A DNA stretch of 64,000 nucleotides from a virus. A program made the position numbers and the translations under genes. The notes under the pieces were generated by a model, which saw only the letters and a list, made by a program, of their open reading frames with translations, was not told the DNA's origin and did not search any database. Positions 3,819 through 23,014 of the stretch are shown here, in pieces (the first letter of the stretch is position 1; every line of letters starts with the position of its first letter). The stretch is taken from the IMG/VR virus record IMGVR_UViG_3300025133_000022, positions 64,001 to 128,000 of that record; one strand, 5' to 3'.

Positions 3819-3894
3819 GCCTTCCACGCGGGTAACACAGGTTCAAATCCTGTACTCGGCTTTATGCCGAGTTCGTCTAGCGGCTAAGACACCT
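3819..3894 (+). tRNA. Circularly permuted tRNA-Gly(TCC), cassette A
   Basis: 3' half 3819-3861 (GC-CTTCCAC-GCGGG...ACAGG TTCAAAT CCTGT ACTCGGC U73), linker TTAT, 5' half 3866-3894 (GCCGAGT TC GTCTAGCGGCTAAGAC A CCT); perfect 7-bp acceptor stem. Confidence 0.8.
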
Positions 3895-3966
3895 CAAACT
3901 AATCTCTTGTATCCTTGTCAGTCACCTTCACGCCCATGATTCTGAGGCTGTAAATATCAGACGCAC

Positions 3967-4041
3967 GGCTATGTGGCTCAGTTTGGTTAGAGCAGGGGCT
4001 TCATACGCCCAAGGCCACAGGTTCAAATCCTGTCATAGCCA
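3967..4041 (+). tRNA. tRNA-Met(CAT), elongator or Ile2 type
   Basis: GGCTATG/CATAGCC acceptor stem; loop TTCATAC. Confidence 0.9.
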
Positions 4042-4056
4042 TTTCACACTATTTAA

Positions 4057-4132
4057 TGCGGAGTAGACTGGAGTTTGGTCCCAGCACGGTCTCATAAGCC
4101 GTATGACGTAGGTTCGAATCCTACTTCCGCCT
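4057..4132 (+). tRNA. tRNA-Met(CAT), initiator-like
   Basis: 1:72 mismatch (T.C); ACGGT-CTCATAA-GCCGT; GTAGG-TTCGAAT-CCTAC. Confidence 0.8.
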
Positions 4133-4146
4133 CTTTAGAGAATGCA

Positions 4147-4452
4147 ATGTTTGATATAATAATTCCTTTCCTCATGGGCATCGTTCTTGTCGGTGCTATG
4201 ATGGAAAGAACTCTTACAGTCATTCAAGGAAACATTTCACGAACTGCTGTACTTAGCATTCTTATCAGTTCTGTGTATTGGTTTAACATCCAATATGTAG
4301 CGAGTGGAAATGTAGCTGCTTATATTAGTTTCAGTATAGGAACTCTTATAGTTACCTGTTGGCAAAGCTGGCGAGAAAAACAACGCTATGCTGGACAACC
4401 GGGGAAAAGCAGAAGAATGACTGACAAACTTAAAAATATTAAGAAAGAATGA
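4147..4452 (+). CDS. Small membrane protein
   Basis: Three hydrophobic segments; start re-called past the tRNA (MFDIIIPF). Confidence 0.6.
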   Translation: MFDIIIPFLMGIVLVGAMMERTLTVIQGNISRTAVLSILISSVYWFNIQYVASGNVAAYISFSIGTLIVTCWQSWREKQRYAGQPGKSRRMTDKLKNIKKE

Positions 4453-4654
4453 ACAAGAGTTTTCATCGCAAAAATAACGGCCCTAAGGTACCTAGATCTG
4501 GGCAACCAGTCAGGGAAAAATGTGAATCCTTCATGGACAAAGCATTGTGGTGACGGCAGATAAGCTTCTTGAAGCCCTGTAACGACCGGCAGAAACTCTT
4601 ACCTCCTTGTCTTTCTTATGTATTTGAATACTTAGTATTTCCTATTTACTTTTT

Positions 4655-4730
4655 GTCCTTGTAGCTCAGTGTTTAGAGCGCCCGAACCTGAAAAGCAGGG
4701 AGGTCGTCGGTTAGAATCCAACCAAGGACA
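4655..4730 (+). tRNA. Atypical or pseudo tRNA-Phe(GAA)
   Basis: Perfect GTCCTTG/CAAGGAC acceptor stem and GCTC/GAGC D-stem; loop CTGAAAA, but distorted anticodon stem and TTAGAAT T-loop. Confidence 0.55.
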
Positions 4731-4852
4731 ACAAATACATCTAAGTGCATCCAGACCTTACAGGCAACCCAAGGGTCAAGCCTGCAAGTGAAACTGTACA
4801 TTTGTGGGTACACAAACCCCGTGAGACCGTTCTCGACACGTTAAATCGGAGG

Positions 4853-5035
4853 ACACACGTTAGAATGCCAGAGAAAGATTACATCGTGCCAATTTACGAG
4901 CCGGTGGTTCAACTCCACAGCTAGAAAGCATGTACGCACGTGCAAAGGCGTACAAGGAGCGACGTTGGGTCGCTCATCGTGGATCGAAAGCCCACGATTC
5001 CTAAAAAATCATCTTCTCACCTCTTGTCTAACACC
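4853..5035 (+). ncRNA. Cassette B: conserved flanks enclosing a non-tRNA multi-hairpin RNA
   Basis: Leader GTTAG-AATGCC...AGATTACATC|G; trailer ATCT...TTGT-CTAAC-ACC; cargo has four or five perfect hairpins (TGTACGC/GCGTACA, GAGCGAC/GTCGCTC, ATCGTGG/CCACGAT). Confidence 0.55.
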
Positions 5036-5098
5036 CTTACTCGCGTAGTTGAACCAGCTCGCTTGTACCACGTACGAATGCCCAGTGAGGATTACATC

Positions 5099-5205
5099 GC
5101 CTTATAAGCGGGTGGTCGCAGGTTCGAGTCCTGTCTCTCCAACCATGGTCTTGACGGGCCTGGCTGTTAGCACAGCCGGAGAGTAGCTCAGTTGGTAGAG
5201 CACCT
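5099..5205 (+). tRNA. Circularly permuted tRNA-Ile(TAT), cassette C
   Basis: 3' half 5099-5145 (GC-CTTATAA-GCGGG...CTCTCCA A CCA), 31-nt linker, 5' half 5177-5205 (CGGAGAG TA GCTC...GAGC A CCT). Confidence 0.8.
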
Positions 5206-5304
5206 ACAAACTGATCCCACAATTTCTTGTCGTACATTTTATCGAATTGAGCGTAGCTCAAACCCACCTCAATAACCATAAACAAATGCCAAATAGATTA
5301 CATC

Positions 5305-5380
5305 GTCCCCGCCATATGGGGACGTGGTGTACAGGCGCACACCCTGAGTCCAATCAGGGAGGAATGGGTTCGATTCCCGT
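5305..5380 (+). tRNA. Circularly permuted Trp(CCA)/Gly-like tRNA, cassette D, broken near nt 65/66
   Basis: 3' piece GTCCCC G CCA (5305-5314), linker TAT, 5' piece GGGGACG...CCCTG-AGTCCAAT-CAGGG...ATGGG TTCGATT CCCGT (5318-5380); abnormal loop size. Confidence 0.6.
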
Positions 5381-5631
5381 GTAATAATCTATTCACTTCT
5401 TTGTTGTTTTATGTAGCAACTGCTCCCTAAAAGTACTACATTACCATCGTGGGATACGTCAGGTTAGTCCTGGAAGACTTGGTACGTTAAGCCAAGCGCG
5501 TTAAAGCACTTAAGTGCCTTGACTGGTTTTAATCAGGATACGTCCCCGCGTCTTCACTGTCGCAAGACAGCAACCCTTCAGGTGGGTACTGATTAAAATC
5601 ACCACGATCGAATGCCAGAGTAGATTACATC

Positions 5632-5709
5632 GCTTTTGGAGCCGGTGGTTCCCGGTTCGAATCCGGGTCTCCCTACTATAGAGAGGTAGCTTAATCAGGT
5701 AGAGCACCG
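5632..5709 (+). tRNA. Circularly permuted tRNA-Gln(TTG), cassette E
   Basis: 3' half 5632-5675 (GC-TTTTGGA-GCCGG...CCCGG TTCGAAT CCGGG TCTCCCT A), linker CTAT, 5' half 5680-5709 (AGAGAGG TA GCTT...GAGC A CCG); joining gives a perfect CCGGC/GCCGG stem. Confidence 0.8.
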
Positions 5710-5780
5710 TTAAAACTAATCTCTCACTTCTTTGTCGATCACCTTTTTCATACAAAAAACAACCATACAGATGAGAAAAT

Positions 5781-5930
5781 ATGAGAAGTAGACAATACGC
5801 CAAAATCAAAAGACGAGTACGCTTGCGTCTCATCGACGGCATGGATCCAGAACGTGTCGAAGAATTAAAAAACGAAGAACTAGCTCGCCTTGAAGCAGGC
5901 GAACGACCCTACCGAGCACCATCTCGATAG
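5781..5930 (+). CDS. Small hypothetical protein (49 aa)
   Basis: Hand translation MRSRQYAKIKRRVRLRLIDGMDPERVEELKNEELARLEAG...; protein-like composition. Confidence 0.45.
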   Translation: MRSRQYAKIKRRVRLRLIDGMDPERVEELKNEELARLEAGERPYRAPSR

Positions 5931-5935
5931 AGTAT

Positions 5936-6024
5936 GGTAGGTGTAGCTCATTTGGAGACGCAAGTCGTAGAGCGCCGGGTTGTGATTCCGGAGGTAACGG
6001 GTTCAATCCCCGTCATCTACCCCA
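5936..6024 (+). tRNA. tRNA-His(GTG) with an extra hairpin in the D-loop
   Basis: Encoded G-1:C73 pair and CCA; CCGGG-TTGTGAT-TCCGG; D-loop contains GAC-GCAA-GTC. Confidence 0.85.
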
Positions 6025-6207
6025 AGAACTAGCTAGCCTAGAGAGCACCACAGTTGAGACAACTGTGGGTCAATGTTCTCGCCACGAACAATTTGCTAAA
6101 TAGTGAAGACAGAGAGCCATGAAAAGCGACGACCTGTTGTTCAGAGCCCGTGCCTACCAGGCAGCACGACCGGGCTCACCATGTTGGAATGCCATGTAGA
6201 ATACACC

Positions 6208-6319
6208 GAATCAACGTAAACCCGGCGCCTTTTGGCTTTGTAGGTTCGAATCCTACCTCACCGACCAAAGCTCTTGAAATAAGAGTTAGGTGAGTGGTGA
6301 AATGGTAAACACTCCGGAT
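6208..6319 (+). tRNA. Circularly permuted tRNA-Tyr(GTA), cassette G
   Basis: 3' half with GTA (6216-6218) AA CCCGG, type II variable arm GCC-TTTT-GGC, GTAGG TTCGAAT CCTAC CTCACCG A CCA (to 6267); hairpin linker; 5' half from 6288 (AGGTGAG TG GTG...CAC T CCGGA). Confidence 0.7.
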
Positions 6320-6462
6320 GATTTTATCTTCATCTACACTTCCTTGTCCAACACCCCACGGGAAAGCAACTCTTCGCGTAGAGTTGAGAGGAGCAGGCTC
6401 ACTGCAGTCGCGCCCAGTCGCGACCTTTCCCACCACGACCGAATGCCCTAGATAACTACATC

Positions 6463-6537
6463 GTAAAACTTGAAATTTTAAGGTCTGGGTTCGAGTCCCA
6501 GTGGGTCCACTTTGGGCCTGTGGTGTAACGGTAGCAT
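6463..6537 (+). tRNA. Circularly permuted tRNA with TGA anticodon, cassette F, broken at nt 25/26
   Basis: 3' part G TAAAA-CTTGAAA-TTTTA AGGT CTGGG TTCGAGT CCCAG TGGGTCC A (6463-6509), linker CTTT, 5' part GGGCCTG TG GTGT AACGGTA GCAT (6514-6537). Confidence 0.7.
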
Positions 6538-6573
6538 CAAACATGTTATCTAACTCTTTTGTCGGTCACCTTT

Positions 6574-6650
6574 GCGGGCATAGCTCACGCTGGTAGAGCA
6601 CCTCGTTGCCAACGAGGAGGTAGTGGGATCATCGCCCACTGTCCGCTCCA
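6574..6650 (+). tRNA. tRNA-Gly(GCC)
   Basis: GCGGGCA/TGTCCGC, U73, CCA; CCTCG-TTGCCAA-CGAGG; atypical T-loop ATCATCG. Confidence 0.85.
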
Positions 6651-6745
6651 AGGGTCTTGAAAACATCCCTACTCGTTAGGTAGCATCTTCCTGCTACATT
6701 CTGTCGTCTGCCAAGAGTCAGCGGCAGTCTTATATTGACTCTTAT

Positions 6746-6833
6746 GCGGGGTTAGCTCAGTCTGGCCAGAGCGCCGGCCTTCCAAGCCGGAGGCGAATAG
6801 TTTACACGGGTTCGAATCCCGTACCCCGCTCCA
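6746..6833 (+). tRNA. tRNA-Gly(TCC) with an expanded variable region
   Basis: GCGGGGT/ACCCCGC, U73, CCA; CCGGC-CTTCCAA-GCCGG; variable region of about 15 nt. Confidence 0.85.
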
Positions 6834-6838
6834 TGCAC

Positions 6839-6913
6839 AAGAACGAGGGTTCCATTGAGAGGAATCGTGGGCGAATAGCCCACTAGATGGTTCGAATCCA
6901 TCCGTTCTTACCA
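6839..6913 (+). ncRNA. Non-canonical tRNA-like RNA
   Basis: AAGAACG/CGTTCTT A CCA; canonical T-arm GATGG TTCGAAT CCATC; two 6-bp internal arms and no canonical D-arm. Confidence 0.6.
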
Positions 6914-7468
6914 CGCCCGTGAATACAATTACCACCTACCTGGATGCATCTTGTGTAGGCTGGACTGGGTAACTTCTCAACAACATTCATCTGGACCCAG
7001 GTGACCCTGCGGTTGAAAACATGGTTCGATCCCATGCACAGGCTCTGAAAAAGGCAGGATAGATAGCTGTACAATCTGCTATAACAAAAATATATACACC
7101 AAGTGGGGCGAGAAACCCACACCCATGCACATCGCCAATGTAGGGTCCGAGATCTGTCGAACCACTGACCTGACGGGAGTTAACCCTAATCAGACATGTA
7201 ATAACAGCAATCACCCATGTGCGGGTCATGCTAATGACGTTGGTGCCATCTCTAGGTATGCAGTAGCCCGGCCACCATCCCGGAACTGCAATGAGAAAGA
7301 ACACATCCTGAGGTTTGTGTATAATTAACCTCAACTTTATATGGCTTGTACTGTGGATACACATTCAAGCCAGTTCTTAAGCAGTCAATTAGATGACGTG
7401 CAGTGCGAGTACTCTTGCTGTGGTGACGACGGTCACAAACAAAATCTAACAAAAAGCTAAGAACAAAT

Positions 7469-7542
7469 GCGGGGGTAGTTTTCAACCGATAAAACATCGG
7501 CCTTCCAAGCCGAAGTCCCGAGTTCAAACCTCGGTGCCCGCT
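7469..7542 (+). tRNA. tRNA-Gly(TCC)
   Basis: TCGGC-CTTCCAA-GCCGA; CCGAG TTCAAAC CTCGG; U73. Confidence 0.85.
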
Positions 7543-13667: not shown

Positions 13668-13734
13668 TTTTTACAAAACCAACACCAAGAGCGCCCATTA
13701 GTGGGCGCTCTTCTATTTTTACACAGGAAAGTTA

Positions 13735-14862
13735 ATGAACCAGGTACCATTGTATATTATCAACTTGGACGACAGCGTCCCACTGCCTGGTGGTACGTTC
13801 GTATTAGATGTTCAAACAGAAAAACTGCATTTATTCAGCAGTGTCGAATCATACAACAAGCAATATGTTATTATTGGTATAGCTGATTGTCCAGACCCAA
13901 CAGAAATACTCGAAGACCCTACATCTGCCCTTGAGCCTTTGCTACAAGTAGGGGTCATGTGTCAAATCACAGAAACAGAAGCTGCAGACACCTTCACGGT
14001 ATATACTCTTCAGGTACTGCATCGAGTCTTGATTAGAAATATCAATAGAAACAAAAGTGAAGACGACCCATATACTCTTTGGGTTCAGCAAGAGCCTATA
14101 GCAGAAGAATTTCTCCCCGCAGAAGAAGAACTAAAGAGAGACATTCAAGATATGATTGGAATATTTCTCCGTAAAGAACAAATCTGGGCAGGTATGTCTG
14201 ATTCAACTATCAAGACACTGCGCTCAGATGAGCATCTTTTGAAAAAGATGCATCTTATGGCAGGGCACATGCTATCAGGTATTGAACGATTAGACTATTT
14301 GCAACAACTCAGCAATGTTGACAGATGGAATAAAGTACTAACTGTGGCTAGCAAAAAACTAAGCGCACAAGCGAGAGCACTACCTCCCCCCGTCTCTAAG
14401 AAAATAGACAAACCTAAAAAGAAAGGTAAGAAACTACTTACTTGGAGAGAACGAGTTGCAGAGAGCGACATGCCTGATGCCGTACGAGAGAAAGTACTAC
14501 GCGAAGTCAGCAAGTTGGAATCTACTCCAAAAAACAGTACCGAGTATGCTCAGACAGCCGACTACCTTCGATGGACTCTAAGCGTTCCATGGGGTAAAAC
14601 AAGCTACATACCAACAGACCTACGCAAACTCCACAGCAAACTAGACGAAACACACTACGGTTTAAGTGAAGTGAAAGAACACATGCTTGAAATCATGTGT
14701 GTCCAAGAGCTTCACGAAGGCTCCACGGGCTCTGTGCTTTGTTTTGTAGGCCCTCCCGGCACAGGCAAAACCACCATCGCAAAATCTATTGCAGACGTTT
14801 CAAATCGTCCACTTATTAGAATTGCCCTAGGTGGACTCAGCGATACTGCTGAATTTCGAGGT
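13735..14862 (+). CDS. lon: Lon-type AAA+ ATPase, exon 1
   Basis: Lon N-domain remnants; LDETHYGLSEVKEHMLE; CFVGPPGTGKTTIAKSIA (Walker A); IALGGLSDTAEFRG. Confidence 0.9.
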
Positions 14863-15782
14863 TAAGCAAAATGGCCTCGCGTGTTGGCAACAGCACGAAA
14901 ACAATTCCATTAATTGCTGGAACATCCTAATGACAAAGTCAAGGACAATCAGCAGCTAGATATTAGTGGTCACCACATGTTACATTAACTCTATAACCAC
15001 GGAGTTAACAATGAAATATCATGTAGGCGACACACTTGGTTCGTTTCTACTCATCAATAAAGATGGAGTAAAATGGACCGCAAAATGCACATGTGGAAAC
15101 ATTTGGTCAACAAGATTGATACGACTAAAAGGCCGTACCAACTGCCCCAAATGCTCACCGCCACGATCTTATAAGCAAAGACAACCAGGTGAAACAATTA
15201 ACAGCCACACCTTACTTGAACGATTACCATCTAGAAAATGGAAAACTCAATGTAAGTGTGGAGCAACTAGAATATGTTCACCAGCTGATCTTAAAAGATA
15301 CGATACATGTAAAGCCTGCTACGATCCTGAGAAAGTAGCAGGCCAACTCCGACTTCCTCCTAAAGAGAAAGAAACTAATTATCGTATCCGCTACTACAAA
15401 AAACATGCTAAAGAAAGAAACTACGATTGGGAATTGACAAAATTTCAAACCCAAACACTACTTCAAAGCATATGCAACTATTGTGGTAGCGAAAATGCTC
15501 AAGGCATTGACAGAGTAGACAACTCTCAAGGATATACAATTAGCAACTGTGTCAGTTGCTGCAATTTTTGCAATCATGCAAAGAAAAACTATCCTAAAGA
15601 AGAGTTTCTTAATCATATTAAGCGCATTTATGAATATCAGTTCAGAGACTATCCCGAAAGGGAGTACAGCCAAGCGGCTGGAAACATGGAACCCCCACGT
15701 GGGTGAAGATATAGTCCGATCTACATGGAAACATGTAGCAGCGAAAGCGAGTGTAGCCTAGCGAACTACGCTGAACACCATG
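14863..15782 (+). mobile_element. Group I intron in lon
   Basis: Exon ends in U (GGT); P AATTGCTGGAAC, Q AATCAGCAG, R GTTCAGAGACTA, S AAGATATAGTCC; terminal G at 15782; splicing restores EFRG|HRRTYV. Confidence 0.9.
15011..15706 (+). CDS. Intron-encoded HNH-type homing endonuclease
   Basis: GGAG RBS; two CxCG zinc modules; CNYCG...GIDRVDNSQGYTISNCVSCCNFCNHAK. Confidence 0.85.
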   Translation: MKYHVGDTLGSFLLINKDGVKWTAKCTCGNIWSTRLIRLKGRTNCPKCSPPRSYKQRQPGETINSHTLLERLPSRKWKTQCKCGATRICSPADLKRYDTCKACYDPEKVAGQLRLPPKEKETNYRIRYYKKHAKERNYDWELTKFQTQTLLQSICNYCGSENAQGIDRVDNSQGYTISNCVSCCNFCNHAKKNYPKEEFLNHIKRIYEYQFRDYPEREYSQAAGNMEPPRG

Positions 15783-16376
15783 CATAGACGTACATACGTA
15801 GCCAGCAGACCAGGACGACTCATCTCCGAACTAAAAGAGAAGGGCAGTATGGATCCACTCATCCTTTTAGATGAAGTTGATAAGCTTGCTCACTACAAGG
15901 GCGACCCAGCAGCAGCCCTATTAGAGATCTTAGATCCAGAACAAAACGATCATTTTGTAGACCACTACTTGGAAGTGCCAGTAAATCTAAGTAAAGCAAT
16001 GTTCATTTGCACAGCCAATTACGAAGAAAAAATTCCACAACCACTACTAGATCGTATGGAACTAATCAGGTTCCGAGCTTACGATGATGCTGAACGCGAC
16101 ATTATTACAAAACAATTTCTGCTGCCAAAAATCCAAGCTCAAGAAAACAATACAAATCTACCAGTAACCTTCGAAGATACAGCTTTAACTAGAATAGCTA
16201 AGATTCCACAAGTAAGAAAAATCGAGAAGATTTTAGCTAAGCTTGTTCGCCGAGGAGTTACCCAAGTCCATGTACATGGGAAGAAAGAATACGTCATTAC
16301 AAATGATGATGTATCAAAAATTAAACACAACTATGTGTCAAAATCCGATCGAAAAATAATTGGATTCAGGAAATAA
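15783..16376 (+). CDS. lon: Lon-type AAA+ ATPase, exon 2 (no protease domain follows)
   Basis: HRRTYVASRPG; PLILLDEVDKL (Walker B); GDPAAALLEILDPEQN; PLLDRMELI; ends ...RKIIGFRK. Confidence 0.9.
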   Translation, partial: HRRTYVASRPGRLISELKEKGSMDPLILLDEVDKLAHYKGDPAAALLEILDPEQNDHFVDHYLEVPVNLSKAMFICTANYEEKIPQPLLDRMELIRFRAYDDAERDIITKQFLLPKIQAQENNTNLPVTFEDTALTRIAKIPQVRKIEKILAKLVRRGVTQVHVHGKKEYVITNDDVSKIKHNYVSKSDRKIIGFRK

Positions 16377-16381
16377 TTACA

Positions 16382-16579
16382 ATGACAACACAATTAGATA
16401 CAAGCACGATCCCAAACCGCATTTGGTTTGTCAACAGTGGGAATGATATTAAAGGTCAATGGCCTAGCAGAAGACTTGCTCGTGTTCAAAAACGTGAACT
16501 TATCGCAGCAGGAAACACTGCGAACATTAGTTTTAGTTTGGTAACAATTGAAAAACCAATCGTAGATTCACATTCCTAA
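16382..16579 (+). CDS. Hypothetical protein
   Basis: ORF track; directly follows lon. Confidence 0.55.
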   Translation: MTTQLDTSTIPNRIWFVNSGNDIKGQWPSRRLARVQKRELIAAGNTANISFSLVTIEKPIVDSHS

Positions 16580-16635: not shown

Positions 16636-17298
16636 TTGCTCAAATACAATCCAGAAAATCGTGTAAAAGATATAATCAAAAACCAAATCCTCGACTTACC
16701 AGAACTACAACACCAACTATCTAAAAATGCCATCTCGTATCTTCGAGAAAGGGTGTTTTTAGGGCAGTGTCAACCATATACTCAAAGAACAAGTAGTGGA
16801 CGACTAACTAGTATGCAAATTCAAACTATTTGTAAATTAAATATCTTGTGTTATCAAGAAAGTTATTATCATCGAGGATTGATAAATGCCGCAACTAAAA
16901 ATAATAAACCAATAGATGTAATCGCATTACATGATTACATCTATGCTCAACTTACACTCATTGTAGCAAACCCAAGATCCGAAATTTCAAACGACTCTCA
17001 AGCTCTTTTGAGAGGTCTAAAATTAAGTAGACGAGCACAAATCGCCCTACTTAATCAAAGAAATGGCCTTTCTGAAATTCTCCAAAGAGAACAACAACTT
17101 CAGCTTGCTCAACTTGGCACGCTAATCCTTCCACCCGCCCTTCTCACCATTTTACGTGAACCAGTTCACTTTGTAGACACTACCGCTACTGCCCTTGGCA
17201 GACTTGCTGAGGTGGTGCTGCGCCAAGGAATCAAATGCCAGGTTTCCACAACGACCAACTCTTTCATTTCAGAGCTTTTAGCAAGCTGCGTCCATTAG
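16636..17298 (+). CDS. Hypothetical protein
   Basis: AGGAG RBS before TTG; 220-aa ORF. Confidence 0.65.
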   Translation: MLKYNPENRVKDIIKNQILDLPELQHQLSKNAISYLRERVFLGQCQPYTQRTSSGRLTSMQIQTICKLNILCYQESYYHRGLINAATKNNKPIDVIALHDYIYAQLTLIVANPRSEISNDSQALLRGLKLSRRAQIALLNQRNGLSEILQREQQLQLAQLGTLILPPALLTILREPVHFVDTTATALGRLAEVVLRQGIKCQVSTTTNSFISELLASCVH

Positions 17299-19442
17299 CT
17301 TACTATGCATTGTCTAGTGCGTACTTTTGCTCCCAGATGCGTTCCAACAGGTCTGCCAGACCATCTCTAGAGTACATCTACAACTTAATCCAAGAAAGTG
17401 TTCTTGCTTTCGATATTGAATTTAATGGAAAATCAACCTTCCATACAAATTCAATAAGAAGACATCACACTACACCCAAACGCAATATGGGAATGCTTAA
17501 GGTACGCAGAACCAAGCAAGGCTATACAAGCTTACCAGAATCACTTTTGAAAAGCATGGGCTCTCCCTTGCATTTTCCGACCCTGCCACCAAGCTTGACT
17601 TTCACCCCAAATGAAAATTTTGAATTGATTCCATATCGCATACAGATGGAAGCAAAATGGGTAGATCGCAGAGGAATGATCAGTTGCTTAGGTAGTAATT
17701 TTCGCAAATGGGTTGCTAGCCAAGGCCCCAGAAGAACAATAACCTGCAGAGGATACCGACACACTTTAGAAGAAAGCAAAATACCAGAATACAGTATCAA
17801 CTACGTTCCAGGCAAAACTGTTTCTAAAGCCGGAAACTTCTTCCTCTACAGCCAGAACCTCAACATCTACAATCCATACACTAAAGAGTACGAAACTGTA
17901 CTGTGGGTGGGTCTGGCTAGTTGCATGAGCATACAATATCTTTATACTCATCCATACGCTACGAAAATCATGAAGAGTCTTCTGGAAGCTAAAAAGCTTA
18001 AGAAAACCATTACCCCTCTTAGTAGGTATAATGCAAAAACTCCAGAAGGCATACGTTGGAGTGCAGCTACTTGGGAAAAGATAGCAGGTCAAACTTTAGA
18101 CCAGTACCAGAAGCAAAGTCATTCAAAAATTCTCGAAACACTAATTTTAGTTGAAGAACTGTTTTCTACTCCAGAAGGCATCAAGCTTCAGCGCATGGAA
18201 GATCTTGCACAAATAAAAAAACAAGAACTTGACGAATTAGAAGCTCAGTTAGAAATTACCGAAAAACAACTTCTCAAAACACAAACAGCAATAATAACAG
18301 AACTGCAACGCGTTAGAGAATACCAACTGAGCCTTCAAAGAAACCGAGAGAAAATTCCCTCCCTTGTGAAAGAGAAAGAAAAACTCCACCCAGAAGTAAG
18401 TGCACGAAAAGCAATTTTCAGTAAGATTCAAACTGCAATAGAAAAGAAAAGAACAGCATTCGAGCTAAATAAACGAAACTTCTTACGCGCTGACAAATTT
18501 AAGAACTCTAGCTCCTATGCAGAAGGCCTAGCTAAGAGCGGACTGGTAATAGACGACTTGGTTTATAAGAACCAAGTCTCAGGCAGAATGAAAACCGCTA
18601 GTGATAACCCAGACATCACGGTACAGCGAGACTGGAAATTAATAAAAGCCTATATGCATACTACTCGTCCAATCAAGATGCATTTTGGTTTAGAGAATGA
18701 AAAACCAAGAGCTAGTGGACCTCATAGGTTAAAAGTATGGCTTGAAGAGGGTACACCCAAACTGAAAATTTCTCCATTGGTTGCCTGGGCGGCGCTAGGC
18801 TGGGACGAGACTACTTTCAAGATAACTCCTCATGCGGATAGCTGCTCCATAGATACAACACAGCCTGCTATGTCAATCTGTAATGACATCTTGGATCACA
18901 GCCCAACAGTTTGCATGGGAGAGCTCAGTGCAACTGCCAGCTGGGCGTTTCATGATAACAATCCTAAAATGCTGGCGTTAGCAATCCTAAGCTTTCTTCA
19001 AAGTGTTAACAAGAAAGACATCTGGGGGAAAACATATACTACGTTCCCTTTCTGGGAAGATGTACAAAAAAGCAAACTTCCCAACGATTACACACACTGG
19101 GTAGAAAATACTGTAATCAAACAATCAGAAGCGCCTAAGTATTATATATCCAAATGTAGTAATTACTTCTTCGAAGTAACTAAAGGATCTGATGGGTGTG
19201 ATTGTAGATGGGGGCGTCTGAGAAAAACAGACAATGGTCTTGTAGAAACAAGCAACAATAGCCACCTCAACTACATAAGAAGCGATTACAATACAACTTA
19301 TACTTTATTGTGCGCAAATGCGCAATGGGTATTATCTCCATTTGCTGCAATTCAACAGAAGCATGATGGAACTACACCTGGTTGGAACCCCATGTCCTAT
19401 GTGCCACCTCCAACTGATTCTTTAGCTACTCCTACTTCTTAA
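17235..19442 (+). CDS. Large coiled-coil protein with a C-terminal prokaryotic E2-like (UBC-fold) domain
   Basis: Central coiled coil; DHSPTVCMGE...LAILSFLQSVNKKDIWG resembles the Prok-E2 H-x-x-x-VC(L/M)G...N..D.WG pattern; true start uncertain. Confidence 0.6.
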   Translation: MPGFHNDQLFHFRAFSKLRPLAYYALSSAYFCSQMRSNRSARPSLEYIYNLIQESVLAFDIEFNGKSTFHTNSIRRHHTTPKRNMGMLKVRRTKQGYTSLPESLLKSMGSPLHFPTLPPSLTFTPNENFELIPYRIQMEAKWVDRRGMISCLGSNFRKWVASQGPRRTITCRGYRHTLEESKIPEYSINYVPGKTVSKAGNFFLYSQNLNIYNPYTKEYETVLWVGLASCMSIQYLYTHPYATKIMKSLLEAKKLKKTITPLSRYNAKTPEGIRWSAATWEKIAGQTLDQYQKQSHSKILETLILVEELFSTPEGIKLQRMEDLAQIKKQELDELEAQLEITEKQLLKTQTAIITELQRVREYQLSLQRNREKIPSLVKEKEKLHPEVSARKAIFSKIQTAIEKKRTAFELNKRNFLRADKFKNSSSYAEGLAKSGLVIDDLVYKNQVSGRMKTASDNPDITVQRDWKLIKAYMHTTRPIKMHFGLENEKPRASGPHRLKVWLEEGTPKLKISPLVAWAALGWDETTFKITPHADSCSIDTTQPAMSICNDILDHSPTVCMGELSATASWAFHDNNPKMLALAILSFLQSVNKKDIWGKTYTTFPFWEDVQKSKLPNDYTHWVENTVIKQSEAPKYYISKCSNYFFEVTKGSDGCDCRWGRLRKTDNGLVETSNNSHLNYIRSDYNTTYTLLCANAQWVLSPFAAIQQKHDGTTPGWNPMSYVPPPTDSLATPTS

Positions 19443-19446
19443 AACC

Positions 19447-19475
19447 GAGGGGGGCGCGTAGCGCCCCTTCTTTCA
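19447..19475 (+). terminator. GCGTAGC-capped hairpin
   Basis: GAGGGGGGC-GCGTAGC-GCCCCTTC then TTTC. Confidence 0.55.
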
Positions 19476-19484
19476 AGAGCAGAT

Positions 19485-20723
19485 ATGAATAAAACACCTA
19501 AAAAAACCTTTGAAATCATACCATTTGGCATTACACCAGACGTGACTGTCTGTATTGATCATGCAAGCCTATTGCGTTACCGCTACTTGGTAGCACAAGT
19601 ATCACCAAACGAAGTTCAATGGTACGCAAAAGTAAAACGAACAGTTACACCAGCTAGCGAACGATCCCGTCAATATTCCAATTCACTATGGACATATCAT
19701 ATCACAGATATGTTCGTTCCCGAACAAAGCGTGAGCAAAGGTTCTGTTGATACTGACATCAAACAAAACCCAGCAGCAATGTATCGACTCATGAAAGAAA
19801 TCGAAGGACGCTATCCTGATGATAGCAGTGAGCTTGGATTCAATACAGAGAAAGCCAACGAAGACATACAGGCTATGCACGTCTGGTGTCATTCGCACCC
19901 GTTCACTCAATATCCTACTCCGAGTGGGCAAGACGACAAAATGTTTTCTGATTGGGTCTATGATAATCAAATAGCCCAAACAATAACCTCTCCGTTCGTA
20001 GCACTTATCTTCGGCTCTAGTGAAAACATTCACGCACGCATATATGACCCGCTTACTCCTGGCATCATGTATGAAAATGTTAAAGTCTCTATCACTGTTG
20101 ATAAAGACTTTGATACAACTTACATGGACAATGCAGTAGCAACCAAGATTGAAGAAAAGACTTTCAATTACGCCAGCGGCGGCACTTACATTCGCTGCTC
20201 TGATGGAGTTTATCGCACTTCTGAAGTAAAAAATGCCTTTGATAAAACCAATCAGAAAAAGCTAATCAGCAAGAAAAACAAATGCTTTTTTGATAAATAT
20301 TTTCCAACAGACTGGGAAACATTTGTTGCAGATTGCAATAGCAAGTACGACAACACCAAAGAAATAATGGAGCTGTGGAACTTCATGTGTCGCTGGCTGC
20401 CTACAAAATTAGAGCGAACGCTTTTCTGCTTAGCTCTTGTAGATACTTCTGAAAGCTTAGAAAAAATGGCACGAGCCAAACAAGAAGACTTATTCCACAT
20501 ATCAGATGAGGACGCTATACTCGTTCTTACAACACACTTCTCATCTGATTCTGTCTGTAGTAAACAACTTCGTTCTGCTTTGACCTTCTCTAAGCGATAC
20601 GCAAAACAAAACAGTGAAGAAGGCAGACTCCGTGCAGTACGCTTTCTTAAGAAGAGCCTAGACAAAATTATCCACAACTCTGCCAGCCCTTCAGGCTACG
20701 TCTTTTTAGAAGACTGCAATTAA
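19485..20723 (+). CDS. JAB/MPN+ domain metalloprotease (deubiquitinase-like)
   Basis: NEVQW (catalytic Glu) and WCHSHP...PSGQDD (HxH-x7-S-x2-D). Confidence 0.8.
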   Translation: MNKTPKKTFEIIPFGITPDVTVCIDHASLLRYRYLVAQVSPNEVQWYAKVKRTVTPASERSRQYSNSLWTYHITDMFVPEQSVSKGSVDTDIKQNPAAMYRLMKEIEGRYPDDSSELGFNTEKANEDIQAMHVWCHSHPFTQYPTPSGQDDKMFSDWVYDNQIAQTITSPFVALIFGSSENIHARIYDPLTPGIMYENVKVSITVDKDFDTTYMDNAVATKIEEKTFNYASGGTYIRCSDGVYRTSEVKNAFDKTNQKKLISKKNKCFFDKYFPTDWETFVADCNSKYDNTKEIMELWNFMCRWLPTKLERTLFCLALVDTSESLEKMARAKQEDLFHISDEDAILVLTTHFSSDSVCSKQLRSALTFSKRYAKQNSEEGRLRAVRFLKKSLDKIIHNSASPSGYVFLEDCN

Positions 20724-20745
20724 CAAACACCAGCGAGAAATTACC

Positions 20746-21441
20746 ATGAGCACACGTGTATCATTCCAAAGACACAATGGCTTTGTAAGCCCAGAATGTC
20801 TTACTGATACTCTCAATATCATTGGAGTCGGCGCGACTGGCTCCAATGTAGCCCTAACAGCAGCTAAAATGGGGTTTACCAAATTTCGCATTTGGGATGA
20901 CGACATTGTTGAAGCTCATAATTTACCCAACCAGACATATGACCTCTGTCATGTTGGCATGCCAAAAGTAGAAGCACTTAAAACAGTGCTAAAACGCTTT
21001 AACCCCGAGATTGAAGTAGAAGTCAATCAGTGTTACTTCACCGCCAAAGAACATGGTGATGACCTGGAAGGCCCACTCATTCTCACCGTTGACACAATGA
21101 AAGCCCGCAAAGAAATCACAGACTGCTTTGAAGGCAACATTCTCATCGATACCGTAATCGAATCCCGTTTAGGATTCAATCATGGCACAATCAATATTAT
21201 AGATTGTACCAGTGCAAAAGATATAAAGGAATGGAAACATTCTTTATTCAGTGATGACGAAATACCCGAAGGTCCTTGTGGCTTTCGAATTTGTACCACC
21301 ATGGTTGGCATGGTTGCGAACTTTATGGTTCAGCAACTCTGCCAAAAATATGCTGCTCAGAAAACCAATGCAGCATGGAACCCAAAGAAAAAGACAGTGC
21401 TCGCCTTCAGTGACACTAGTCTAGACACCTATTCAACCTAA
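20746..21441 (+). CDS. ThiF/E1-like ubiquitin-activating enzyme
   Basis: IIGVGATGS; WDDDIVEAHNLPNQ; VGMPKVEAL; LTVDTMKAR; ESRLG; EGPCG. Confidence 0.9.
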   Translation: MSTRVSFQRHNGFVSPECLTDTLNIIGVGATGSNVALTAAKMGFTKFRIWDDDIVEAHNLPNQTYDLCHVGMPKVEALKTVLKRFNPEIEVEVNQCYFTAKEHGDDLEGPLILTVDTMKARKEITDCFEGNILIDTVIESRLGFNHGTINIIDCTSAKDIKEWKHSLFSDDEIPEGPCGFRICTTMVGMVANFMVQQLCQKYAAQKTNAAWNPKKKTVLAFSDTSLDTYST

Positions 21442-21454
21442 GGAATTATCGCAC

Positions 21455-21682
21455 ATGCGCACAATCTCTCTCGTCACTCTTCCAGGCTCTGGCCGTAGCG
21501 TTCAGCAAATCGAACCCGGAACCACCCTTGCATCCTTCGCTGCCGCCAATGGCGTAACAAACCGTCAGCTCTGTCTGAACGGTGACACAATCCCAAGAGC
21601 CCAGTGGGAATCTGTCGACCTGTTTGCATATGAAGGCAGGGTAGAAGTGGCCGCACTGCTAGGCAGCAAGGGCAACAGCTGA
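21455..21682 (+). CDS. Ubiquitin-like (beta-grasp) protein
   Basis: 75 aa; MRTISLVTLPG...IEPGTTL...LCLNG...; ends GSKGNS; directly after the E1 gene. Confidence 0.7.
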   Translation: MRTISLVTLPGSGRSVQQIEPGTTLASFAAANGVTNRQLCLNGDTIPRAQWESVDLFAYEGRVEVAALLGSKGNS

Positions 21683-21737
21683 GTTTAGCAAACTCAAACA
21701 TCTGAATGGATCCTTAAGGGGATCCATTCTTATTTAT

Positions 21738-22121
21738 ATGACAATCAAAATTCAAGTCATTGGTCTTCCAGGTTCTGGGAAGACCACTTATATTCGCAAA
21801 TTCTTAGAACAACACCCTGATGTCCAATACCTAGACATTTGTAATTTTACCGGCAGATGTCGAGAACAAAAATTCAGAAGAGCTTTCAAGAATGCACAAG
21901 GGCCTATCATTGCCGAAAGCGCTTGTGGCATTTACAATGCAGGTTATATCATTAGGGTAAATACCCCAATTCAAACTACGTATCGCCAGCTGAAAGCTAG
22001 AGATGATAAAGCTGATCTAGAATATCTTTCTCTACTGAGTACACAAATAGTGCCTGCCCATTGTACACTGAGGCTGCCGGAAGATCTCCCCGGCCAATTG
22101 CAGACCATACTAAGGAGGTAA
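21738..22121 (+). CDS. Small P-loop kinase-like protein
   Basis: IGLPGSGKTT Walker A. Confidence 0.7.
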   Translation: MTIKIQVIGLPGSGKTTYIRKFLEQHPDVQYLDICNFTGRCREQKFRRAFKNAQGPIIAESACGIYNAGYIIRVNTPIQTTYRQLKARDDKADLEYLSLLSTQIVPAHCTLRLPEDLPGQLQTILRR

Positions 22122-22126
22122 TAACT

Positions 22127-23014
22127 ATGTTACATATCAGGAATCTAGAAGTTCTACCAGAAATAGTAGACAGTGTTTACGCTTCTCCTACTGTGAAGCT
22201 TAAAGCAACCGGACCAATTAACAGTTACGCAATCCTACGAGACATATTCACTCCAAAGCACACTGCTTTAATTCAGCACCTAGGTGATGGCAAATGGGCA
22301 CGAGTCCGTGGATCCAGCGACCTGACAATCTCCGGTCTCCGTGGTCGAGACTCTCAACAAACAGCATGCATCAACAGTCTAGTACACGAAAAGATTTTAA
22401 TTAATACAATTATTGGTCAAGCTGGCACAGGCAAAACCACCATCGCTCTAGCTTATGCGCTTGACCGCTGGTTCAATGAAAACAAAAGAATTGTCCTAAG
22501 TAAACCAACCGCAATGGTTGGTGAAGGAAAAGCTTTTGGACCCGTGCCTGGAGACATGGCTGAAAAATACGCACCATATCTAGCAAGTTATGAAATTGCT
22601 ATGAAGCGACTACTAGGTTGCAACTCTCAAGGTCAACTTGAAGCCATGAAACGCAAAAAGCATCTAGAGTACGTACCTATTGAATTAGTACGCGGCAGTG
22701 AATTCGAAAACTGTACCTTCATTCTTGACGAAGCACAAAACCTTACATGGCATGAGATCAAAACCCTTATCAGTCGTATGGGTGAGGGCACAACGCTAAT
22801 TATTTTAGGAGATCTACGTCAAATTGATATTGTCGATCGTCGCGGATGCACCATACCAGCAAGCACTACGGGTCTATATAAACTAATTCACTCCCTCCCA
22901 TATCAGCAATCTGCGATAAGCAGCCAGATGGAATTGACTACACAATATCGCAGTCCTATTACTAAACTCATCGCCGACGTTGATGAGTGGCTTGCAAAAC
23001 CAAACAAAACCTAA
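22127..23014 (+). CDS. phoH: PhoH-like ATPase
   Basis: GQAGTGKTT; FGPVPGDMAEKYAPYL; RGSEFEN...ILDEAQNLT; GDLRQID. Confidence 0.9.
   Translation: MLHIRNLEVLPEIVDSVYASPTVKLKATGPINSYAILRDIFTPKHTALIQHLGDGKWARVRGSSDLTISGLRGRDSQQTACINSLVHEKILINTIIGQAGTGKTTIALAYALDRWFNENKRIVLSKPTAMVGEGKAFGPVPGDMAEKYAPYLASYEIAMKRLLGCNSQGQLEAMKRKKHLEYVPIELVRGSEFENCTFILDEAQNLTWHEIKTLISRMGEGTTLIILGDLRQIDIVDRRGCTIPASTTGLYKLIHSLPYQQSAISSQMELTTQYRSPITKLIADVDEWLAKPNKT

What the first reader, a model, noticed from the sequence alone, without database searches (positions are those of the whole stretch)
17235..21682. Complete phage-encoded ubiquitin-like conjugation operon (E2 - JAB - E1 - Ubl)
Seen: four consecutive genes: a 735-aa coiled-coil protein with a C-terminal E2-like Cys motif (HSPTVCMG...NKKDIWG), a JAB protease (HSH...S..D), a ThiF/E1 and a 75-aa beta-grasp protein ending ...SKGNS. 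Established: E1/E2/JAB/Ubl operons occur in bacteria, and some act in antiviral defence (Bil/Bub-type systems; CBASS Cap2/Cap3), where JAB trims the Ubl to expose a C-terminal Gly. Inference: JAB removes NS after Gly, and the phage conjugates the Ubl to host or phage targets, as counter-defence or for proteolytic tagging. It lies directly downstream of the Lon-like ATPase.
Basis: partly seen in the sequence, partly recalled or inferred. Interest (0 to 1): 0.78.

Follow-up and report, generated by a model that had tools for sequence, protein, structure and literature searches.

The report
Phage-encoded ubiquitin-like tagging cassette
A 192-kb uncultured phage and its relatives carry a conserved block of genes for a small ubiquitin-like protein, its activating enzyme, a trimming protease and a large cysteine enzyme that probably transfers the tag; some relatives have polyubiquitin-style repeat genes, so this looks like a virus-owned version of a tagging system studied so far only in bacteria, as anti-phage defence.

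Summary
The four genes are real and lie at the stated coordinates. Three parts are well supported. The 231-aa protein is a minimal ThiF/E1 with an invariant Cys placed like the catalytic Cys250 of UBA5. The 412-aa protein has an invariant JAMM motif. The 75-aa protein folds as a beta-grasp (pLDDT 90; best matches MoaD, ThiS, ubiquitin).

The E2 assignment of the 735-aa protein is not proven. It founds an unannotated family (209 cluster representatives) with an invariant xPH...C-x-G motif, an alpha/beta-meander/helices order and E2 neighbours in the ESM Atlas. No HMM, profile-profile or fold search confirmed a UBC fold.

The new evidence is synteny. In all 12 other distinct loci that encode a relative of the big protein, down to about 15% identity, the order big protein, JAB, E1, Ubl is kept. 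It usually follows a protease-less Lon-like AAA+ gene.

Every Ubl unit ends in KGN. Five loci carry poly-Ubl or Ubl-fusion genes whose repeat boundary falls after Asn.

Targets and biological role are unknown. Earlier notes of this scan describe other phage Ubl cassettes on other DNA. I found no paper describing one.

The parts
13687..13712 (+). 11-bp-stem hairpin followed by a T-run just upstream of the Lon-like gene; probable upstream boundary of the transcription unit
   Evidence: Earlier notes on this genome read such hairpins as stop/restart signals; no transcript data exist.
13735..14862 (+). Exon 1 of the Lon-like AAA+ ATPase (LON substrate-binding N domain plus Walker A)
   Evidence: Pfam LON_substr_bdg 5.5e-9 and AAA 1.1e-7; phrog_15585. 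The uninterrupted orthologue in L002 is 586 aa. The junction ...EFRG|HRRTY... was checked.
14863..15782 (+). Group I intron with an endonuclease-like ORF (14966-15706) that interrupts the Lon-like gene
   Evidence: Rfam RF00028 at 15556-15738, 45.3 bits (gathering score 50), E 3.9e-9. The 5' exon ends in T and the intron ends in G. The gene is intact in L002 and 11 other loci.
15783..16376 (+). Exon 2 of the Lon-like AAA+ ATPase (rest of the AAA+ module and lid; no protease domain)
   Evidence: Pfam AAA 2.8e-9. The L005 orthologue has LON_substr_bdg, AAA and Lon_lid but no Lon_C. No Lon_C match in the whole genome.
16382..16579 (+). 65-aa ORF conserved in 7 related loci; function unknown
   Evidence: jackhmmer.
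16636..17298 (+). 220-aa ORF of unknown function. It occupies the slot that a conserved ~270-300-aa protein fills in more distant loci.
   Evidence: Searches give no family. The only detectable homologue is in L002.
17235..19442 (+). 735-aa multidomain Cys enzyme, the candidate E2-like Ubl carrier. Domains: N-terminal alpha/beta domain (~80-295), coiled-coil hairpin (297-418; nt 18123-18488), conserved His/Cys domain (427-612; nt 18513-19070), beta-rich C-terminal domain (633-709; nt 19131-19361).
   Evidence: AlphaFold2 model with pLDDT 81.5, above 90 over residues 430-620. The family has 209 representatives. The N terminus MPGF..Q.F is conserved in homologues, so the start at 17235 is real.
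18828..18833 (+). Invariant Pro532-His533 of the His/Cys domain
   Evidence: Invariant in 61 diverse members; codons checked.
18912..18920 (+). Invariant Cys560-x-Gly562, the candidate catalytic cysteine
   Evidence: Invariant in 61 members. The His-Cys spacing is 19-31 residues.
19451..19467 (.). GC-only palindromic hairpin (GGGGCGC TAC GCGCCCC) between the big gene and the JAB gene
   Evidence: function not tested.
19485..20723 (+). 412-aa JAB/JAMM metallopeptidase (N-terminal ~200 aa) with a conserved C-terminal domain of unknown function
   Evidence: Pfam Prok-JAB 3e-3, below the cut-off. 9 of 11 homologues hit Prok-JAB. E43, H136, H138, S147 and D150 are invariant. Motif at 19890-19934.
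20746..21441 (+). 231-aa minimal E1 (single ThiF-type adenylation domain). The invariant Cys178 (21277-21279) is the candidate thioester site.
   Evidence: Pfam ThiF 3.9e-19. PADLOC Cap2 models match over their E1 part, 5e-16. Among solved structures (PDB): 9egb 4.5e-15, PaaA 1.7e-11, UBA5 5e-9, ThiF 7e-9. The C178 motif aligns with UBA5 REGVC(250)AASLPTT.
21455..21682 (+). 75-aa beta-grasp Ubl precursor ending ..GSKGN-S; K72, G73 and N74 are at 21668-21676
21704..21729 (+). 11-bp-stem hairpin followed by a T-run right after the Ubl gene; probable end of the transcription unit

Best explanation
This is a phage-owned ubiquitin-like protein conjugation system, and it forms a conserved core block of a lineage of large uncultured phages.

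Proposed mechanism:
1. The Ubl is made as a precursor. Here it carries one extra residue; in relatives it occurs as head-to-tail poly-Ubl or as Ubl fused to a tail domain.
2. The JAB/JAMM peptidase cuts at the invariant ..VKGN / ..SKGN motif.
3. The minimal, probably homodimeric, UBA5/ThiF-like E1 adenylates the exposed C terminus and takes it onto Cys178.
4. The tag passes to the invariant Cys560 of the 735-aa protein. Its His/Cys domain acts as an E2-like carrier, and its N-terminal, coiled-coil and C-terminal domains would choose the targets, so it would be an E2/E3 hybrid.
5. The JAB may also reverse the modification.
6. The co-transcribed protease-less Lon-like AAA+ ATPase may act on tagged proteins.

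Shown here: the gene set, the folds or motifs of the E1, JAB and Ubl, the invariant catalytic-type residues, the precursor architectures and the synteny. Inferred: every transfer step, the E2 fold, the cleavage position, the targets and the link to the ATPase.
For: - Pfam ThiF 3.9e-19 for the E1.
- Invariant JAMM residues in 11 homologues, with 9 of 11 giving weak Prok-JAB hits.
- E1 Cys178 is invariant in 12 sequences and aligns with the catalytic Cys250 of UBA5.
- The big-protein family has 209 representatives with invariant P532, H533, C560, G562 and D595.
- The model's element order in 427-612 is helix, beta-meander, PH loop, Cys, then three or four helices.
- ESM Atlas structural neighbours 1 and 3 of residues 425-625 are UQ_con clusters (TM 0.40 and 0.39). 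In two independent members, the only Pfam-named set among the feature hits is viral clusters carrying Prok-E2_D.
- The order big protein, JAB, E1, Ubl is kept in L002 and in 11 further distinct loci, at 15-30% identity in the big protein.
- Poly-Ubl and Ubl-fusion genes in which every unit keeps the full GSVKGN end imply proteolytic release of active units.
- Hairpin/T-run sites bracket the stretch from the Lon-like gene to the Ubl gene.
Against: - No E2 model of Pfam, NCBIfam or PADLOC matches the big protein or 61 relatives.
- hhalign of the domain profile against Cap2 E2 domains and Prok-E2_D proteins found nothing.
- The His-Cys spacing of 19-31 residues is about three times that of canonical E2s.
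- The invariant terminal Asn is not what a Gly-terminated Ubl system predicts.
- The Arg of the E1 NxxRQ motif is replaced (HNLPNQ, invariant).
- Synteny within one phage lineage may partly reflect shared ancestry rather than functional coupling. This applies above all to the Lon-like gene.
- There are no experimental data.
Confidence: 0.6

Rival explanations
1. The E1, JAB and Ubl form a real activation and processing module, but the 735-aa protein is not an E2. Conjugation would be E2-independent, as in archaeal SAMP/UbaA or Urm1. The big Cys protein would be something else: a cysteine peptidase or deconjugase (His-then-Cys order as in permuted papain-like enzymes), a Cys-dependent E3, or the main substrate or scaffold.
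For: - No sequence or profile link to any E2 family.
- Atypical His-Cys spacing.
- Fold searches inconclusive.
- Minimal E1s such as UbaA work without an E2 (established knowledge).
Against: - ESM Atlas leads point to E2.
- The C-x-G-[DE] motif resembles the hC-x-G-[ND] seen in the Prok-E2_D proteins fetched here, and the xPH motif resembles that of Cap2 E2 domains.
- The helix, beta-meander and helices order fits UBC.
- An invariant Cys strictly linked to E1, JAB and Ubl is what a carrier would show.
Confidence: 0.2
2. The mature tag ends in Asn, and the E1 performs MccB-type chemistry. It would adenylate a C-terminal Asn, which cyclises to a succinimide. The product would be a Ubl-nucleotide adduct or an isoaspartyl or imide-linked conjugate rather than a Gly-Lys isopeptide.
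For: - Asn is invariant in about 30 units.
- 12 distinct single-unit genes stop right after Asn and none stops at Gly.
- The poly-Ubl register (71-aa units, the same length as the single-unit genes) puts the boundary after Asn.
- MccA-type precursors of MccB, an E1 homologue, all end in Asn and pass through a succinimide (PMC4010828).
- PaaA and MccB are among the solved-structure (PDB) hits of the E1 profile, at 1.7e-11 and 2.8e-7.
Against: - The 231-aa E1 has no N-terminal peptide-clamp extension.
- It has a UBA5-like Cys.
- A JAB and a Cys enzyme are not part of mcc clusters.
- JAMM peptidases normally cut after Gly, so Asn could simply be a P1' determinant.
Confidence: 0.12
3. The system is a sulfur-carrier system of ThiS/ThiF or MoaD/MoeB type, in which the Ubl is thiocarboxylated. 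It could serve, for example, thiolation of the phage's many tRNA-like RNAs.
For: - The best structural matches of the Ubl are MoaD and ThiS, with a weak ThiS hit at 0.016.
- The best NCBIfam hits of the E1 are ThiF models.
- The genome is rich in tRNA-like RNAs (earlier notes).
Against: - All hits lie far below the equivalog cut-offs (75.9 against 159 bits; 15.6 against 37.45).
- There is no rhodanese or other sulfurtransferase, thiazole or molybdopterin gene in the block.
- The C terminus is KGN, not GG.
- Poly-Ubl and fusion precursors and a 735-aa Cys enzyme have no place in sulfur relay.
Confidence: 0.05

Closest known systems
Bil operons (BilA Ubl, BilB E2, BilC JAB, BilD E1; type 6d of Iyer et al. 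2006, PMC1779556; described in PMC11601596 and PMC10557695)
   Same: A four-part set of separate genes: a free Ubl, a Cys-bearing carrier, a JAB/JAMM peptidase and an E1. No RING or HECT E3. The carrier is proposed to choose the targets itself.
   Different: - Bil is host-encoded anti-phage defence; this cassette is a core block of a phage.
[quoted passage not shown]
- The Prok-E2_D model does not match the big protein.
- The carrier is 650-1100 aa with a coiled coil and extra domains.
- The Ubl ends in KGN.
UBA5-UFM1 (minimal homodimeric E1 of eukaryotes)
   Same: A single adenylation domain with the catalytic Cys on the crossover segment. The motif PEGPC..TTM..VA here resembles REGVC(250)AASLPTTMGVVA in UBA5.
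   Different: There is no UFM1-interacting C-terminal extension and only about 30% local similarity. The Arg of NxxR is replaced by Asn (HNLPNQ).
Eukaryotic polyubiquitin and ubiquitin-fusion genes (UBB/UBC/UBI4, UBA52/RPS27A)
   Same: Relatives of this phage encode 2-3 head-to-tail Ubl units without spacers, sometimes with one to three extra residues at the end, and Ubl units fused to an unrelated C-terminal domain or a basic Gly/Arg-rich tail.
   Different: The Ubl family is unrelated (ThiS/MoaD-like in structure). The unit end is KGN rather than RGG. The presumed processing enzyme is a JAMM metallopeptidase rather than a Cys deubiquitinase.
Bub / 6E operons (PMC11601596) and their multi-domain Ubls (PMC11601603)
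   Same: A prokaryotic system with E1, E2, Ubl and a JAB peptidase that cuts a precursor. Its Ubls have 1-3 beta-grasp domains.
   Different: - Bub uses Ubl-E2 and JAB-E1 fusions.
- Bub lacks catalytic cysteines and works through oxyesters.
- Bub carries a DUF6527 serine protease.
- None of these holds here: the genes are separate, the Cys residues are invariant, and there is no DUF6527 match.
MccB/MccA (microcin C) and PaaA
   Same: An E1-family adenylating enzyme whose ribosomal substrate ends in an obligatory Asn (PMC4010828).
   Different: The substrates there are short peptides. MccB has an N-terminal peptide-binding domain. There is no JAB, no Cys carrier and no beta-grasp substrate.
Archaeal SAMP/UbaA/HvJAMM1 and the Lambda tail assembly Ubl (TAPI) with the JAB of TAPK (PMC1779556)
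   Same: A small ThiS/MoaD-like Ubl, a minimal E1 and a JAMM peptidase. Pairing of a Ubl with a JAB in phages is already known for tail assembly genes.
   Different: SAMP systems have no E2-like partner and end in GG. The lambda module has no E1, lies among the tail genes and is not a conjugation system.

Membership tests
ThiF/MoeB/E1 superfamily (231-aa protein) | Rossmann-type adenylation domain matching Pfam PF00899 above its cut-off, with a Gly-rich loop | tested here: met
   69.2 bits against a cut-off of 28.1, E 3.9e-19. IIGVGATGS is invariant.
ThiF/MoeB/E1 superfamily (231-aa protein) | Catalytic Cys on the crossover segment (needed for an E1 thioester) | tested here: inconclusive
   C178 is invariant in 12 sequences and aligns with UBA5 Cys250, but only in a sub-threshold HMMER segment. 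No structure or biochemistry.
ThiS/ThiF or MoaD/MoeB sulfur-carrier pairs | NCBIfam equivalog scores; C-terminal Gly-Gly on the carrier | tested here: not met
   ThiF model PRK08644 scores 75.9 bits against a cut-off of 159. ThiS scores 15.6 against 37.45. The carrier ends in KGN(S).
JAB/JAMM (MPN+) metallopeptidases (412-aa protein) | E ... HxH x(7-9) S xx D zinc site | tested here: met
   E43, H136, H138, S147 and D150 are invariant in 11 homologues.
JAB/JAMM (MPN+) metallopeptidases (412-aa protein) | Pfam Prok-JAB (PF14464) gathering score | tested here: not met
   17.8 bits against a cut-off of 25. 9 of 11 homologues give weak hits, best 6e-4. This is a divergent member by sequence score.
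Beta-grasp ubiquitin-like proteins (75-aa protein) | Beta-grasp fold | tested here: met
Beta-grasp ubiquitin-like proteins (75-aa protein) | Exposed or exposable C-terminal Gly used for activation | tested here: inconclusive
   G73 is invariant, but it is always followed by an invariant Asn. The cleavage position is unknown.
E2/UBC superfamily (residues 427-612 of the 735-aa protein) | Match to an E2 sequence model (UQ_con, Prok-E2_A to E, PADLOC E2 parts) | tested here: not met
   - No hit at E <= 0.1 for this protein or at E <= 0.01 for 61 relatives.
- PF14460, PF00179 and PF14457 were not found by the genome search. That tool also missed the weak JAB, so its blanks carry little weight.
- hhalign against Cap2 and Prok-E2_D templates found nothing.
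E2/UBC superfamily (residues 427-612 of the 735-aa protein) | UBC fold (N-terminal helix, four-strand meander, active-site loop, C-terminal helices) | tested here: inconclusive
   The element order in the model fits, with extra strands and an inserted helix. ESM Atlas structural rows 1 and 3 are UQ_con clusters at TM 0.40 and 0.39. Solved-structure (PDB) searches were filled by the coiled coil.
E2/UBC superfamily (residues 427-612 of the 735-aa protein) | Invariant catalytic Cys with an upstream His-containing (HPN-like) loop | tested here: inconclusive
   C560 and P532-H533 are invariant in 61 members, but they are spaced 19-31 residues apart rather than about 8-10.
Bil (BilABCD) | [quoted passage not shown] | tested here: not met
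   The E1 is 227-246 aa in all loci, with one ThiF domain.
Bub (6E/DUF6527) | Ubl-E2 and/or JAB-E1 or E2-E1 fusions; a DUF6527 protease; no catalytic Cys | tested here: not met
   The genes are separate. No PF20137 match in the genome. Cys residues are invariant in the E1 and the big protein.
Type II CBASS Cap2/Cap3 | E2-E1 fusion next to a CD-NTase | tested here: not met
   PADLOC E1-E2 models match only over their E1 part (model positions about 300-460). There is no fusion and no CD-NTase in the block.
PRTRC cassette | TIGR03736 PRTRC_ThiF and partner models above their cut-offs | tested here: not met
   25.6 bits against a cut-off of 144.75. No other PRTRC model hit.
MccB-type peptide adenylyltransferases | Substrate with an obligatory C-terminal Asn | tested here: met
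   Asn74 is invariant and is the last residue in most genes.
MccB-type peptide adenylyltransferases | N-terminal peptide-clamp domain on the enzyme; short peptide substrate | tested here: not met
   The E1 starts about 20 residues before the Gly-rich loop. The substrate is a folded 71-75-aa domain.

The most novel reading that the evidence does not exclude
A large lineage of phages runs its own ubiquitin-like pathway with new chemistry.
- The tags are made from polyubiquitin-like and fusion precursors.
- Their mature end is Gly-Asn rather than Gly.
- The minimal E1 activates the terminal Asn, with MccB-like succinimide-prone chemistry.
- An undescribed giant E2/E3 hybrid passes the tag to its targets.
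- The protease-less Lon-like AAA+ ATPase, encoded in the same transcription unit, reads the tagged proteins. That would amount to a viral analogue of a tag-and-unfold proteostasis pathway.
Probability: 0.15. Interest if true: 0.92.

Novelty: new variant of a known kind. Interest (0 to 1): 0.77.

Why it matters
Ubiquitin-like conjugation in prokaryotes has so far been characterised as host defence against phages (CBASS Cap2/Cap3, Bil, probably Bub). Here the machinery belongs to the virus. It is conserved across very divergent phages, which suggests a role in the infection cycle itself: remodelling host or phage proteins, counter-defence or assembly.

The family offers four things to study:
- a new, unannotated Cys enzyme family that is the candidate carrier;
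- the smallest kind of E1;
- polyubiquitin-like and ubiquitin-fusion-like gene architectures that arose outside eukaryotes;
- an unexplained invariant Gly-Asn terminus that may point to unusual activation chemistry.

All components are small enough for direct reconstitution, so the open questions can be tested.

Tried and rejected
- Close relatives in reference phages: megablast of the cassette and tblastn of the big protein found nothing. IMG/VR scans with patterns from the close family also found nothing. A subgroup alignment (A5) was needed to find relatives.
- E2 by sequence: Pfam, NCBIfam, PADLOC and PHROGs gave nothing. Profile searches of solved structures returned only coiled-coil proteins.
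- E2 by profile-profile comparison: I fetched three Cap2 and three Prok-E2_D genes from Gammaproteobacteria. hhalign gave probabilities below 1%. These templates are thin, so this is weak negative evidence.
- E2 by fold: Foldseek against PDB, VIA-align wide, VIA-align on the Foldseek list and BFVD, all on the full-length model, returned coiled-coil hits or unannotated phage proteins.
- The genome search 'relatives' is not available for virus records.
- PRTRC, Bub, CBASS and sulfur-carrier memberships were tested and rejected.
- The JAB profile does not reach solved JAMM structures by sequence.
- A second Ubl copy in this genome was sought and not found.

Full report
**Setting.** The window is bases 64001-128000 of a 192,537-bp IMG/VR virus record that CheckV rates as complete. 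Earlier notes on the same genome describe a contractile-tailed, probably marine phage with its own RNA polymerases, Y-RNA arrays and self-splicing introns.

**Observation.** One search confirms four consecutive + strand ORFs at the stated coordinates:
- 17235-19442 (735 aa)
- 19485-20723 (412 aa)
- 20746-21441 (231 aa)
- 21455-21682 (75 aa)

The gaps between them are 42, 22 and 13 nt. Two 11-bp-stem hairpins followed by T-runs lie at 13687-13712 and 21704-21729. They bracket the stretch from the Lon-like ATPase gene to the Ubl gene, so the cassette is probably the distal part of a longer transcription unit. A 65-aa and a 220-aa ORF separate the ATPase gene from the cassette, so "directly downstream" is only approximately right.

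**E1.** The 231-aa protein matches Pfam ThiF at 3.9e-19. It also matches the E1 part of PADLOC Cap2 models. It scores far below every NCBIfam equivalog cut-off, including ThiF, MoeB, UbaA and PRTRC_ThiF.

An alignment of 12 orthologues (A6) shows these invariant features:
- the Gly-rich loop;
- WD.D.VE.HNLPNQ.Y, in which the usual Arg of NxxRQ is replaced;
- VD..AR;
- R9-H10 near the N terminus;
- two cysteines, C178 and C199.

Against solved structures the profile hits 9egb (4.5e-15), PaaA (1.7e-11), UBA5 (5e-9), ThiF (7e-9), MoeB, Cap2, MccB and BubCD. A sub-threshold segment of the UBA5 alignment puts C178 (PEGPCGFRICTTMVGMVA) on REGVCAASLPTTMGVVA. Allowing for the construct's tag, that cysteine is the catalytic Cys250 on the UBA5 crossover segment (PMC12355090). 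The E1 is therefore a minimal enzyme, probably a homodimer, with a plausible thioester cysteine. This is inferred, not shown.

**JAB.** The Pfam Prok-JAB hit is weak (17.8 bits against a cut-off of 25). However, 9 of 11 homologues give the same weak hit. E43, H136, H138, S147 and D150, which make up the JAMM zinc site, are invariant. About 200 further residues form a conserved C-terminal domain of unknown function.

**The 735-aa protein.**
- *Family.* It has no match in Pfam, NCBIfam, PADLOC or PHROGs. It founds a sizeable family: five homologues at 33-47% identity and 209 cluster representatives at E <= 1e-3 in the 1.84-billion-protein library, 117 of them at <= 1e-10.
- *Conserved residues.* In a 61-sequence alignment only P479, G495, P532, H533, C560, G562 and D595 are invariant. 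The consensus motif is [WVI]HPH[TS], then 19-31 residues, then C[LM]GE...AF..N.PK...W[LIV].SAN..D.WG.
- *Model.* The AlphaFold2 model (pLDDT 81.5; above 90 over 430-620) shows an N-terminal alpha/beta domain, a coiled-coil hairpin (297-418), the His/Cys domain and a beta-rich C-terminal domain. The His/Cys domain runs helix, beta-meander, PH loop, an inserted helix, Cys, then three or four helices.
- *Evidence for an E2-like fold.* That element order is what a UBC-like domain with insertions would look like. The C-x-G-[DE] motif resembles hC-x-G-[ND] in the Prok-E2_D genes I fetched, and xPH resembles the Cap2 E2 loop. For residues 425-625, ESM Atlas structural rows 1 and 3 are clusters carrying UQ_con (TM 0.40 and 0.39 over about 120 residues). 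For this protein and for a distant member, the only Pfam-named set among the feature neighbours is viral clusters carrying Prok-E2_D.
- *Tests that failed.* No HMM hit in 61 members. hhalign against Cap2 and Prok-E2_D templates gave nothing. Every PDB fold search on the full-length model was filled by coiled-coil matches.
- *Conclusion.* The E2 fold is favoured but not demonstrated. An invariant Cys enzyme is certain.

**Synteny, the strongest new evidence.** A metagenome contig (L002) has this order: Lon-like ATPase (586 aa, uninterrupted), 67 aa, 201 aa, 778-aa relative of the big protein, JAB, E1, 75-aa Ubl, P-loop protein, PhoH.

Using a subgroup alignment (A5), I then fetched 11 IMG/VR loci and 2 MAG contigs that encode distant relatives of the big protein. 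Two pairs are near-identical, which leaves 11 distinct loci. It finds JAB, E1 and one or more Ubl genes immediately downstream of the big gene in every one of them. In these loci the big protein is only about 15-30% identical to the window's.

Upstream, a roughly 270-300-aa protein and a 70-85-aa protein are conserved in these loci. A Lon-like AAA+ protein of about 530-605 aa is found upstream in all but L014 and L016 (and L013, where the contig ends). That ATPase has the LON substrate-binding domain, the AAA module and the Lon lid, but no protease domain, and no Lon_C match exists anywhere in this genome.

These phages share ancestry, so the wider synteny alone does not prove function. Even so, a four-gene set retained through such divergence is under joint selection.

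**Precursors.** Every Ubl unit in all loci ends in [AT]TG[SA]VKGN, or GSKGN in the window's clade.
- Twelve distinct single-unit genes stop right after Asn, and none stops at Gly.
- Six single-unit genes carry extensions after Asn, from one residue (S here) to a 33-aa Gly/Arg-rich tail.
- Five loci encode tandem units. L012 has three. L017 and L016 have two, plus one to three extra residues. L006 has three and L015 has two, each followed by a shared 94-aa domain.
- The units are 71-73 aa, the same length as the single-unit genes. The residues after each internal Asn occupy the positions of Met-x-x-x in the first unit, so the repeat boundary falls after Asn.

These are the architectures of eukaryotic polyubiquitin and ubiquitin-fusion genes, and they require an endopeptidase, for which the adjacent JAB is the obvious candidate. 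The invariant Asn is unexplained. The second reading recalls MccB, an E1 homologue whose MccA substrates all end in Asn and react through a succinimide (PMC4010828). This genome has a single Ubl gene.

**Comparison with known systems.** The closest functional analogue is Bil: separate Ubl, E2, JAB and E1 genes, with no E3. But BilD has tandem adenylation domains plus a Cys domain, the BilB-type model does not match, and Bil is host defence (PMC11601596). Bub is excluded by its fusions, its lack of cysteines and its DUF6527 protease. CBASS Cap2/Cap3 is excluded because there is no E2-E1 fusion and no CD-NTase. Sulfur-carrier pairs and PRTRC are excluded by their score cut-offs and by the C terminus.

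Weak but suggestive relatives of the His/Cys domain sit next to ThiF genes in two other phage groups:
- Xanthomonas jumbo phage PhiXhv-15: an 892-aa protein, hhalign probability 51%, E 1.5e-4 over 105 columns.
- crAss001: gp79 has a Ubl-like N terminus ending ..KIKSGA, gp78 has SH..C.G, gp77 has a JAMM motif and gp76 is a ThiF.

**Literature and earlier notes.** I found no paper in the held library that describes a phage-encoded Ubl conjugation cassette. The jumbo-phage survey PMC7824862 does not mention one. Earlier notes of this scan report other phage Ubl cassettes on other DNA. They gave me the crAss, jumbo-phage and PRTRC leads, which I tested as described above.

**Verdict.** I file the finding as a new variant of a known kind of system.

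Noticed in passing
window 13735-16376 (intron about 14863-15782; ORF 14966-15706): The Lon-like AAA+ gene is split by a 920-nt group I intron (Rfam RF00028, 45.3 bits, just under the gathering score of 50, E 3.9e-9). The intron carries a Cys-rich endonuclease-like ORF. The 5' exon ends in T and the intron ends in G. Orthologues in 12 other loci are uninterrupted.
   Followed up: partly
window 13735-16376; L002 4407-6167; L005 2465-4222: The phage Lon-like protein has the LON N domain, the AAA+ module and the lid but no protease domain, and no Lon_C match exists in the genome. It is conserved just upstream of the Ubl cassette in most related loci. Its partner protease, if there is one, is unknown.
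   Followed up: partly
window about 56289-56807 and 61360-61767 (ORFs 56250-56855 and 61234-61899): There are two ClpP-family (PF00574) genes, at 96.7 and 85.6 bits. They could be head-maturation proteases or genuine ClpP partners for an unfoldase. I did not examine them.
   Followed up: no
L006 11865-12800; L015 11955-12674; L012 11374-12015; L017 10340-10771; L016 9719-10198: These are polyubiquitin-like genes with 2-3 head-to-tail Ubl units, each ending GSVKGN. In L006 and L015 the units are followed by a shared 94-aa Cys-containing domain of unknown function.
   Followed up: partly
L014 11715-12029; L017 9984-10271; L016 10848-11111: These are single Ubl units fused to short Gly/Arg/Pro-rich basic tails with a shared GRPSGGGRGNNP motif, in the manner of ubiquitin-fusion genes.
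   Followed up: no
L004 (Bacteroides phage crAss001, MH675552.1) 2247-6657: gp79 (Ubl-like N-terminal domain ending ..KIKSGA, then an extension), gp78 (SH..C.G motif), gp77 (JAMM HSH..S..D) and gp76 (ThiF with a 160-aa N-terminal extension) look like a distant version of the same cassette in crAss-like phages.
   Followed up: partly
L003 (Xanthomonas phage PhiXhv-15, PV764602.1) 3238-7488: An 892-aa protein with an HPH...CLG motif lies immediately upstream of a 227-aa ThiF gene in jumbo phages. The next two genes (70 and 228 aa) show no Ubl or JAMM features.
   Followed up: partly
window 21738-23014: A 127-aa P-loop kinase-like protein and a PhoH-like ATPase (Pfam 2.8e-37) follow the cassette here and in nearly all related loci.
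   Followed up: no
window 19451-19467: A perfect 7-bp all-GC palindromic hairpin sits in the 42-nt gap between the big gene and the JAB gene.
   Followed up: no
tool behaviour: the genome search found no candidate for Prok-JAB in this genome, although hmmscan scores the JAB at 17.8 bits. Its blanks for weakly matching families should not be read as absence.
   Followed up: yes
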